A program made the translations under genes and the position numbers. From a virus (taxonomy: Duplodnaviria; Caudoviricetes): a DNA stretch of 64,000 bases. The stretch is from IMG/VR virus record IMGVR_UViG_3300028805_000043; one strand, given 5' to 3'. The notes below the pieces were generated by a model, which worked only from the letters and a program-made list of their open reading frames with translations, was not told the origin of the DNA and ran no database searches. Positions 60,429 to 60,565 of the stretch are shown here, piece by piece; position 1 is the stretch's first letter, and every line of letters begins with the position of its first letter.

Positions 60429-60565
60429 TGGTTGGCGCTGTGGGACTCGAACCCACGACCCCGGACTTAAAAGGTCGAAGTAACTCTTATCTTCAACAAT
60501 CTTTAGAGGATGTAACCGTCGACAAAAGTGCACAATTCGTGCTCTACCAACTGAGCTAAACGCCA
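60429..60565 (-). ncRNA. tRNA-Lys-like RNA with ~61-nt Y-RNA-like insert and encoded CCA
   Basis: TGGCGTT/AGCGCCA-A-CCA, canonical D and T arms, insert between the D arm and the CTTTTAA hairpin. Confidence 0.65.

What the first reader, a model, noticed from the sequence alone, without database searches (positions are those of the whole stretch)
60429..60565. tRNA-Lys / Y-stem hybrid with real ends and a CUA loop at the tip
Seen: a 7-bp acceptor with encoded ACCA, canonical D and T arms and a Lys-like CUUUUAA hairpin. A ~61-nt insert holds the Y-like motif with its strands in reversed order (CTTTTGTC pairs with GATAAGAG), capped by ATC-CTCTAAA-GAT, a 7-nt anticodon-like loop reading CUA. Established: YrlA RNAs are tRNA mimics whose ends lie in the Ro-binding stem. 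Inference: a circular permutation of that design that keeps a chargeable end, potentially linking it to the amber system. The CUA loop could be chance.
Basis: partly seen in the sequence, partly recalled or inferred. Interest (0 to 1): 0.75.

Follow-up and report, generated by a model that had tools for sequence, protein, structure and literature searches.

The report
tRNA-Lys carrying a Ro60-type RNA handle
This rumen phage gene encodes a complete lysine tRNA with a conserved 61-base hairpin set into its anticodon stem; in related phages, including cultured crAss-like ones, the same hairpin marks small RNAs encoded right beside a Ro60-like protein gene, so it is most likely a new kind of Y RNA built on a real tRNA.

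Summary
It is a tRNA-Lys(UUU) with a 7-bp acceptor, encoded ACCA and normal D and T arms. A 61-nt hairpin sits between tRNA positions 28 and 29.

- **Real structure:** 17 relatives keep the same architecture. Acceptor, T stem and the split anticodon stem pair in 304 of 306 cases, with many compensatory changes.
- **CUA loop is chance:** the tip loop varies freely in sequence and in length (7-41 nt among the close orthologues), so the amber link has no support.
- **A portable handle:** its two strands also form hairpins between tRNA genes, and they enclose rotated tRNA bodies elsewhere in this genome.
- **Link to Ro60:** in 45 of 49 crAss-like phage loci, including a cultured Kehishuvirus, clusters of handle-bearing RNAs lie directly downstream of a TROVE+vWA (Ro60-like) gene. 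The big relatives that carry this split tRNA-Lys also encode that protein. This 70%-complete genome shows none.

Best reading (about 0.6): a Y-RNA-like partner RNA that tethers a real tRNA-Lys body to phage Ro60. Rival (about 0.2): the handle is a cut-and-rejoin module, that is, an intron. Rfam's YrlA model does not match. The scan noted similar split or handle-tagged tRNAs before on other DNA.

The parts
60429..60565 (-). Whole element: tRNA-Lys(UUU) body with a 61-nt handle hairpin inserted between positions 28 and 29
60559..60565 (-). Acceptor stem, 5' strand (positions 1-7)
   Evidence: Pairs with 60433-60439. In 18 sequences, 126/126 canonical pairs with 2-3 pair types per position.
60541..60556 (-). 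D arm (4-bp stem, 8-nt loop with GG)
   Evidence: invariant stem
60538..60539 (-). Anticodon-stem positions 27-28 (CG), just before the insert
   Evidence: Pair with 42-43. Compensatory changes occur across the insert.
60530..60537 (-). 5' linker of the insert (8 nt; 4-13 nt in relatives)
60510..60529 (-). Handle strand M2: 5' strand of proximal helix H1, the internal-loop strand with GUCGACG, and the distal-helix strand
60500..60509 (-).
   Evidence: Not conserved in sequence or length.
60477..60499 (-). Handle strand M1, ending in the conserved single-stranded tail UACUUC
   Evidence: A 24-nt exact copy lies at G000 105217-105240, and there are five copies in the tRNA island, all on this strand.
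60462..60476 (-). Positions 29-31, anticodon loop CUUUUAA and positions 39-43
   Evidence: the loop is CUUUUAA in 14 of 18 relatives
60440..60456 (-). T arm
60429..60439 (-). Acceptor 3' strand, A73 and encoded CCA
   Evidence: Only 1-2 of 60 ordinary tRNA genes in this genome encode CCA.
59683..59758 (-). Stand-alone copy of the same handle (order M1-loop-M2) filling the spacer just 5' of tRNA-Thr

Best explanation
The gene makes a tRNA-Lys(UUU)-shaped RNA with a fifth arm.

**Proposed steps**
1. It is transcribed with the minus-strand tRNA array.
2. Its ends are cut like those of any tRNA.
3. It folds as a cloverleaf. The anticodon stem is formed by 27-28 and 29-31 stacking on a continuous 39-43 strand.
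4. The 61-nt insert protrudes from this stem on flexible linkers.

The insert is a conserved handle: a proximal helix, an internal loop, a distal helix, a free tip and a single-stranded UACUUC tail.

The handle is most likely the docking site of a phage Ro60 orthologue (TROVE + vWA ring protein). On this reading the RNA is a Y-RNA-like partner that tethers a genuine tRNA-Lys body to that protein. The likely use is tRNA-directed RNA surveillance or counter-defence, for example as bait or decoy for enzymes that act on tRNA-Lys(UUU), or to recruit or blunt host PNPase as in Thermus phage phiLo.

**Shown here:** the structure, its conservation, the handle's modular reuse in three topologies, and its linkage to the Ro60-like gene.

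**Inferred:** physical binding, retention of the handle in the mature RNA, and the biological role.
For: **The handle is a portable unit.**
- Five copies lie in this genome's tRNA island, all on the tRNA strand. One is inside this tRNA, two are empty hairpins, and two enclose rotated tRNA bodies.
- The proximal helix covaries: AGAGU/ACUCU, AGACU/AGUCU, AGUGG/CCACU, AACAC/GUGUU and others. Frequent G.U pairs show it acts as RNA on this strand.

**Linkage to Ro60.**
- In a complete 104.8-kb phage genome, the TROVE gene is followed within about 80 nt by five handle RNAs and then a terminator. One of the five is a split tRNA-Lys(UUU) like ours.
- Across 49 crAss-like loci, the tail motif occurs at 3.46 per kb in the 1.1 kb downstream of the gene, against 0.22 per kb elsewhere. 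45 of 49 loci have two or more.
- The same arrangement is present, and unannotated, in cultured Bacteroides phage PhiCrAssBcn4.
- A third clade, with 52% protein identity, has two handles just upstream of its TROVE gene.
- The jumbo-phage TROVE protein is 61% identical to the crAss-like one. It is present on the 254-kb and 435-kb contigs that carry orthologues of our element.

**Positive control.** In Xanthomonas, Caulobacter and Rhizobium phages, the space beside the orthologous TROVE gene holds YrlA-like RNAs, with E-values from 1e-10 to 8e-3.

**Published precedent.** A phage Ro60 binds Y-like RNAs encoded beside its gene (PMC12135203). YrlA Y RNAs mimic tRNA (PMC4201824).

**Translation is not what is conserved.**
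- In about 20 Kehishuvirus-type loci, the anticodon arm of the equivalent RNA is degenerate while the acceptor, D arm, T arm and handle persist.
- The linkers between tRNA and handle vary: 4-13 nt on the 5' side and 6-11 nt on the 3' side. That fits a tether better than fixed splice sites.
Against: - No TROVE or DUF2828 gene is found in the 199.7 kb held for this genome, by HMM or by tblastn. One 83%-complete relative that has handles lacks it too.
- The 49 adjacent loci are related phages, so adjacency counts as about two independent clades plus one clade of co-occurrence, not 49 events.
- Rfam YrlA does not match.
- The published CGAA-type motif is only approximated in this copy (GUCGACG) and is not conserved across the family.
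- Binding has not been shown.
- The tRNA part is fully canonical in this lineage: U33, UUU, A37, A73 and CCA. That would also fit a gene that is spliced into a working tRNA.
Confidence: 0.6

Rival explanations
1. The handle is a protein-dependent cut-and-rejoin module. It is excised from this pre-tRNA as an intron at 28/29 to give a working tRNA-Lys(UUU). In the rotated units, the same module guides circularisation followed by RNase P and 3' trimming, as with archaeal and red-algal split or permuted tRNA genes. Ro60 and RtcB might take part.
For: - Deleting the insert gives a canonical 76-nt tRNA-Lys.
- Rotating the units enclosed by the handle gives ARAGORN-callable tRNAs. In this genome these are a Lys(UUU) split at 68/69, with CCA and a 6-nt linker, and a Leu(UAA)-like unit. 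On contig L027 they are Lys(CUU), Leu-like and Tyr(GUA).
- The 3' junction is usually exactly after the conserved UACUUC tail.
- RtcB ligase is encoded by two relatives.
- This copy and the rotated Lys copy both encode CCA, although only 1-2 of 60 normal tRNA genes here do.
- One orthologue switched its anticodon to GAU while keeping a proper loop.
Against: - No bulge-helix-bulge can form at the junctions in any of 18 sequences.
- No splicing endonuclease is found in this genome. No RtcB is found here, although two relatives encode one.
- No RNase III or T4-type RNA ligase is found here. The T4-ligase model rang in no control genome, so that negative shows little.
- Both linkers vary in length, and three relatives have 3-5 extra bases after the tail.
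- Many relatives have a degenerate anticodon arm, so splicing would yield a useless tRNA.
- The module-bearing genes are redundant with 4 normal Lys(UUU) and 3 Leu(UAA) genes.
- No insert-less or spliced form turned up in metagenome contigs.
Confidence: 0.2
2. The handle is simply a long double-stranded processing or punctuation site, of the RNase III kind, for the polycistronic tRNA transcript. Its copy inside tRNA-Lys is a tolerated or regulatory insertion that splits or inactivates this redundant tRNA. Ro60 is not involved.
For: - Stand-alone copies fill the spacers between tRNA genes and extend to stems of about 24 bp that bring neighbouring tRNA ends together.
- This genome shows no Ro60 gene.
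Against: - It does not explain the conserved unpaired bases (the UACUUC tail and the internal loop).
- It does not explain the clusters directly downstream of the TROVE gene in phages where those RNAs are not in a tRNA array.
- It does not explain retention of the 28/29 insertion through deep divergence of the tRNA body: eight different acceptor stems.
Confidence: 0.12
3. A decaying tRNA pseudogene hit by a chance insertion or recombination, with no function.
For: The standard tRNA finders do not call it, and it is redundant with other Lys(UUU) genes.
Against: The architecture is kept in 18 sequences from at least three phage clades, with compensatory changes in every stem, including across the insert.
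Confidence: 0.03

Closest known systems
YrlA-type bacterial and phage Y RNAs bound by Ro60/Rsr (Rfam RF02553; Chen et al. 2014, PMC4201824)
   Same: A small RNA that combines a Ro60-associated stem with a tRNA-shaped domain. In relatives it is encoded beside the TROVE gene. The rotated units in this genome have the YrlA topology, with a closing stem and a sealed acceptor.
   Different: - No match to the YrlA covariance model.
- The handle has a different sequence (UACUUC tail, covarying 5-9 bp helix), and the GNCGAA motif is only approximated.
- Here the tRNA part is a complete tRNA with free acceptor ends, CCA and a real anticodon loop, and the handle is a side arm in the anticodon stem.
Thermus phage phiLo Ro60 with Yrl1/Yrl2 (Hu et al. 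2025, PMC12135203; PDB 9KOP, 9L5Y)
   Same: A phage-encoded Ro60 ring protein (the nearest solved relative of the proteins found here) that binds stem-bulge-stem RNAs encoded next to its gene.
   Different: Those RNAs are simple hairpins with a CGAA bulge and no tRNA body. No binding data exist for the handle described here.
Non-canonical introns, split and permuted tRNA genes of Archaea and Cyanidioschyzon merolae (own knowledge)
   Same: One helix module is found inside a tRNA gene, around rotated tRNA genes, and at varied positions (26/27, 28/29, anticodon loop, 68/69).
   Different: No bulge-helix-bulge, no splicing endonuclease, a bacterial-virus setting, and variable linkers.
'ACAGCAA-handle' tRNA-mimic RNAs noted earlier by this scan (AI notes, unpublished)
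   Same: Phage tRNA arrays carry tRNA-shaped cargo attached to one conserved handle in two topologies, read as partners of a Ro60-shaped protein.
   Different: The handle sequence is different, and the partner there is DUF2828, whereas here it is a bona fide TROVE+vWA protein. Both handle types co-occur on contig L027.

Membership tests
Y RNA / YrlA (Ro60 partner RNA) | Encoded beside, or together with, a Ro60 (TROVE) gene | tested here: met
   This holds at family level. 45 of 49 crAss-like loci, a complete 104.8-kb genome and a third clade have handle RNAs next to the gene. The jumbo relatives with this split tRNA-Lys encode the orthologue.
Y RNA / YrlA (Ro60 partner RNA) | A Ro60 gene in the same genome as this element | tested here: not met
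   No TROVE or DUF2828 by HMM and no tblastn hit in the 199.7 kb held, which is 70% complete. The genes that flank TROVE in relatives are absent too, so the locus may lie in the missing part.
Y RNA / YrlA (Ro60 partner RNA) | Match to the Rfam RF02553 covariance model | tested here: not met
   No hit on the element or its paralogue at E <= 10, and none on the crAss-type clusters at E <= 1 or 0.01. The same model does hit beside TROVE in three other phage groups.
Y RNA / YrlA (Ro60 partner RNA) | Stem-bulge-stem with the GNCGAAN0-1G / CGAA motif | tested here: inconclusive
   A stem-internal loop-stem is present. This copy has GUCGACG (6 of 7). Orthologues read GUCGCUG, GUCGAGA and so on, and the crAss-type handles lack it.
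Y RNA / YrlA (Ro60 partner RNA) | RNA termini lie in the Ro-binding stem | tested here: not met
   Here the termini are the tRNA acceptor ends and the handle is an internal hairpin. The feature is met by the rotated paralogues at G000 105.0-105.2 kb and 107.95-108.14 kb.
Y RNA / YrlA (Ro60 partner RNA) | Physical binding to Ro60 | not testable with these tools
   Needs a gel shift or pull-down.
Canonical tRNA-Lys(UUU) | Cloverleaf with 7-bp acceptor, D and T arms, 7-nt loop with U33, UUU and A37, and A73 | tested here: met
Canonical tRNA-Lys(UUU) | Continuous body recognised by tRNA finders | tested here: not met
   ARAGORN and the Rfam tRNA model miss it. It is called only after the 61 nt are deleted.
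Protein-spliced (bulge-helix-bulge) tRNA intron | Two 3-nt bulges holding the splice sites, 4 bp apart | tested here: not met
   None of 18 sequences has a 4/4 central helix, even when the sites are shifted by 1 nt.
Protein-spliced (bulge-helix-bulge) tRNA intron | Splicing endonuclease and RtcB-type ligase available | tested here: inconclusive
   No endonuclease or RtcB in this genome. RtcB is encoded in two relatives. The host enzymes are unknown.
Group I self-splicing tRNA intron | Group I core, roughly 200 nt or more | tested here: not met
   The insert is 52-91 nt and a simple hairpin, with no Rfam intron hit.

The most novel reading that the evidence does not exclude
The handle is a new RNA cut-and-rejoin signal in viruses of bacteria. 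It lets phages keep intron-split and circularly permuted tRNA genes and mature them into working tRNAs. The Ro60-like ring protein and RtcB would serve as the processing and ligation machinery, which would give Ro60 a first direct role in tRNA biogenesis.
Probability: 0.15. Interest if true: 0.9.

Novelty: new variant of a known kind. Interest (0 to 1): 0.72.

Why it matters
Ro60 and its Y RNAs are conserved from bacteria to humans, yet their job is poorly understood. The TROVE protein of crAss-like phages, among the most abundant human gut viruses, is an early gene whose RNA partners I did not find described in the papers I could search.

If this reading holds:
- Those partners are identified: a cluster of unannotated handle-bearing RNAs beside the gene.
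- Phages are seen to graft the handle onto full tRNAs, not only onto mimics.
- The system becomes testable in cultured Bacteroides phages.
- The many unclassifiable 'broken' tRNA genes in large phage tRNA arrays get a concrete explanation.
- It points to tRNA-Lys(UUU), a frequent target of bacterial anticodon nucleases, as the shape being displayed.

Tried and rejected
**Readings tested and rejected**
- CUA tip loop as a functional anticodon-like loop: rejected, because the loop is not conserved.
- Bulge-helix-bulge intron: rejected.
- K-turn, IRE1-type loops, group I or II introns, and hammerhead or other ribozymes: considered by eye and through the Rfam E-value scan; nothing fits.
- RNA ligase hit PF09414: it turned out to be an NAD-dependent DNA ligase.
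- The 'ACAGCAA' handle of earlier notes: not enriched in this tRNA island, so it is a different module.
- Pairing of the UACUUC tail with the variable loop, as proposed by RNAalifold: both sides are invariant and the tail is equally conserved in handles with no tRNA attached, so I do not adopt it.

**Searches that led nowhere**
- Genes next to the tRNA island (49.8-57.7 kb): no informative domains.
- Neighbours of RtcB in relatives: uninformative.
- A loose pattern scan for the M2-loop-M1 order: 118 chance hits, useless.
- The apparent module beside the TROVE gene of the jumbo relative G002: a chance match inside a coding region.
- Metagenome scan for a spliced or insert-less form: only ordinary bacterial tRNA-Lys genes.
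- Literature searches for phage tRNA introns, permuted tRNAs in phages, and Y RNAs of crAss-like phages: nothing relevant.

Full report
**1. Setting**

The window is bases 32001-96000 of a 199.7-kb IMG/VR virus record, about 26% G+C and estimated 70% complete. It shares 65-92% DNA identity over the tRNA region with rumen and gut jumbo-phage contigs of 100-435 kb. The minus strand carries a roughly 19-kb tRNA island in which ARAGORN genes. The finding lies in a 940-nt stretch of that island where no tool calls a tRNA.

**2.

Read on the minus strand, 60565-60429 is a 137-nt RNA with:
- a 7-bp acceptor stem, A73 and encoded CCA
- a standard D arm and T arm
- a CUUUUAA loop

C27-G28, then the insert (60537-60477), then G29-A30-C31 together pair perfectly with 39-43. 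In the closest orthologues the halves read CG and AGC against GCUCG, so the pairs change on both sides across the insert.

ARAGORN and the Rfam tRNA model miss the gene. With the 61 nt removed, ARAGORN calls a 76-nt tRNA-Lys(UUU).

I collected 17 further sequences with the same architecture from three phage groups and parsed them by position:

| Stem | Canonical pairs | Pair types per position |
|---|---|---|
| Acceptor | 126/126 | 2-3 |
| Split anticodon stem | 88/90 | 3-4 |
| T stem | 90/90 | 1-3 |

Eight different acceptor sequences occur. RNAalifold on 13 of the sequences finds compensatory changes in 19 of 32 pairs. Folding energy alone is unremarkable, so the support is comparative.

**3. 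The CUA loop is chance**

The tip of the insert differs in every orthologue and runs from 7 to 41 nt among the close ones. Nothing links the element to the CUA-anticodon tRNA at 57932-58002. The encoded CCA is also specific to this copy, since the orthologues have only A73-C. It is still odd that just 1-2 of 60 ordinary tRNA genes here encode CCA, while this gene and one paralogous unit both end in CCA followed by the same six bases.

**4. The insert is a portable handle**

I call the insert's 3' strand M1 and its 5' strand M2. M1 ends in a helix strand plus the tail UACUUC. A 24-nt exact copy of M1 lies 12.7 kb away. In all, five copies lie in the island, all on the tRNA strand. M2 recurs next to each copy, but in the opposite order.

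- **Empty hairpins.** Two copies are M1-loop-M2 hairpins that fill the spacer between two tRNA genes. One of them is in the window, at 59683-59758.
- **Rotated tRNA bodies.** Two copies enclose a tRNA body. When the enclosed sequence is rotated, ARAGORN calls a 76-nt tRNA-Lys(UUU) split at 68/69, with G73-CCA and a 6-nt linker, and a Leu(UAA)-like tRNA.
- **A chain of rotated units.** On contig L027, three such units follow one another: Lys(CUU), a Leu-like unit and Tyr(GUA).

The proximal helix covaries freely, with pairs such as AGAGU/ACUCU, AGACU/AGUCU, AGUGG/CCACU, AACAC/GUGUU and CGAGU/GCUCG, and it has many G.U pairs. It therefore acts as RNA.

**5. First reading, then a turn**

These three topologies at first looked like an archaeal-style cut-and-rejoin system. 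The tests for that reading failed:
- no bulge-helix-bulge can form in any of 18 sequences
- the genome encodes no splicing endonuclease, RtcB or RNase III, and the only ligase hit is an NAD-dependent DNA ligase; the search for T4-type RNA ligase rang in no control genome, so it shows little

Earlier notes of this scan describe a different handle (ACAGCAA) on tRNA-shaped RNAs and tie it to a Ro60-shaped protein. It is present in 3 of 8 handle-bearing records, including the only complete one.

**6. Linkage of the handle to a Ro60-like gene**

In that complete 104.8-kb genome, the 469-aa TROVE+vWA gene is followed within about 80 nt by five handle RNAs and a terminator:
- two hairpins
- a split tRNA-Lys(UUU) like ours
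- a second tRNA-shaped RNA with the handle
- one handle-enclosed cargo

Further evidence comes from other loci.
- **crAss-like loci.** Of 49 loci encoding close relatives of the protein (68-100% identity), 45 have two or more tail motifs in the 1.1 kb just downstream on the same strand. The density there is 3.46 per kb, against 0.22 per kb elsewhere.
- **A cultured phage.** Bacteroides phage PhiCrAssBcn4 (Kehishuvirus) has the same five RNAs in an unannotated 880-nt gap. In crAss001 the TROVE gene is an early gene described as 'a possible ribonucleoprotein component', and the two crAss papers I checked name no partner RNA.
- **A third clade.** At 52% protein identity and a different base composition, it has two handles just upstream of its TROVE gene.
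- **The jumbo clade.** Its TROVE protein is 61% identical to the crAss-like one. It is found on the 254-kb and 435-kb contigs that carry orthologues of our element.
- **A control.** The space beside the orthologous TROVE gene in Xanthomonas, Caulobacter and Rhizobium phages gives YrlA matches with E-values from 1e-10 to 8e-3. The crAss and jumbo type gives none.
- **Nearest solved structure.** The closest solved relative of the protein is the Ro60 of Thermus phage phiLo, which binds Y-like RNAs encoded beside its gene and engages host PNPase (PMC12135203).

**7. What is and is not conserved**

Among the TROVE-adjacent equivalents of our RNA:
- the loop is CUUUUAA in several divergent lineages
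- other proper anticodon loops occur (UGU, GUU; GAU in one jumbo orthologue)
- the anticodon arm is degenerate in about 20 Kehishuvirus-type loci, while the acceptor, D arm, T arm and handle persist

The linkers that join handle and tRNA vary, from 4 to 13 nt on the 5' side and from 6 to 11 nt on the 3' side. Both facts fit a tRNA shape tethered to a docking arm better than a precisely excised intron.

**8. Conclusion and cautions**

The best-supported reading is that the element is a Y-RNA-like partner RNA in which a genuine tRNA-Lys(UUU) carries the Ro60-associated handle as a fifth arm.

Cautions:
- Binding is inferred from gene linkage only.
- The adjacency comes from about two independent clades plus one clade of co-occurrence.
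- This genome, as held, has no Ro60 gene, and the neighbours of that gene in relatives are missing too, so the locus may be in the absent 30%. One 83%-complete relative lacks it as well.
- The published CGAA-type motif is only approximated.

The splicing reading stays open at about 0.2, because the tRNA here is fully canonical and the rotated units restore perfect tRNAs. A metagenome scan found no insert-less or joined form, only ordinary bacterial tRNA-Lys genes.

**9. Novelty**

The kind (Ro60 with a tRNA-like Y RNA) is known. New, as far as the searchable literature and Rfam 15 show, are this handle, its use on complete tRNAs with free ends, its three topologies, and its presence beside the TROVE gene of crAss-like phages. 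The scan had noted split tRNA-Lys genes and handle-tagged tRNA mimics before, on other DNA and with a different handle.

Noticed in passing
G000 105017-105240 (outside the window; locus L002 about 1300-1525, minus strand): A rotated tRNA-Lys(UUU)-like unit enclosed by the same handle. The last 8 nt of the tRNA (UUUC-G-CCA) come first, then a 6-nt linker, then positions 1-68. The loop reads UGUUUAA, with G at position 33.
   Followed up: partly
G000 about 107950-108140 (outside the window): A second handle-enclosed rotated unit. ARAGORN calls it a 92-nt tRNA-Leu(UAA) after rotation. Its handle is of the crAss-like subtype.
   Followed up: partly
L027 minus strand, about 5050-5560 of the reverse complement (identical in L022): A chain of three handle-flanked rotated tRNA units (Lys CUU, a Leu-like unit, Tyr GUA without a long arm). 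They lie next to RNAs closed by a 7-bp stem plus ACAGCAA, so two handle types sit in one array.
   Followed up: partly
L200 3920-4799 (Bacteroides phage PhiCrAssBcn4, OQ221539.1 about 92244-93123): An unannotated 880-nt gap downstream of the TROVE gene of a cultured crAss-like phage. It holds five handle RNAs, two of them tRNA-shaped, and ends in a terminator.
   Followed up: partly
L145 1420-2736 and L146 1390-2721: Two jumbo relatives encode RtcB RNA ligase. This genome as held does not.
   Followed up: partly
L015 8759-8924 (minus strand): The orthologue of this split tRNA has the loop CUGAUAA (anticodon GAU, Ile) on an otherwise Lys-type body, and a 91-nt insert.
   Followed up: no
window 57900-64000 and G000 89.9-109 kb: Almost all 60 tRNA genes encode only N73-C and not CCA. 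The exceptions are one tRNA-Tyr, this element and the rotated Lys unit. The latter two share CCA followed by AUAUUU.
   Followed up: partly
window 60339-60415, 58196-58270, 61125-61194 (minus strand): Further sub-threshold tRNA-like elements (Rfam tRNA 23.3 and 21.9 bits; tRNA-Sec-like 21.5 bits) in gaps of the array. The neighbours at 60571-60696 and 59996-60241 also look like tRNA bodies with large inserts.
   Followed up: no
L275 1370-1930, L276 956-1567, L277 890-1143: YrlA-like RNAs, below Rfam's gathering score but with E-values down to 1e-10, lie unannotated beside TROVE genes of Xanthomonas, Caulobacter (CcrColossus) and Rhizobium phages. Some overlap features annotated as tRNA or terminator.
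   Followed up: no
L150 254-1069: An ADP-ribosylglycohydrolase gene lies directly upstream of the TROVE gene in the jumbo relative G002.
   Followed up: no
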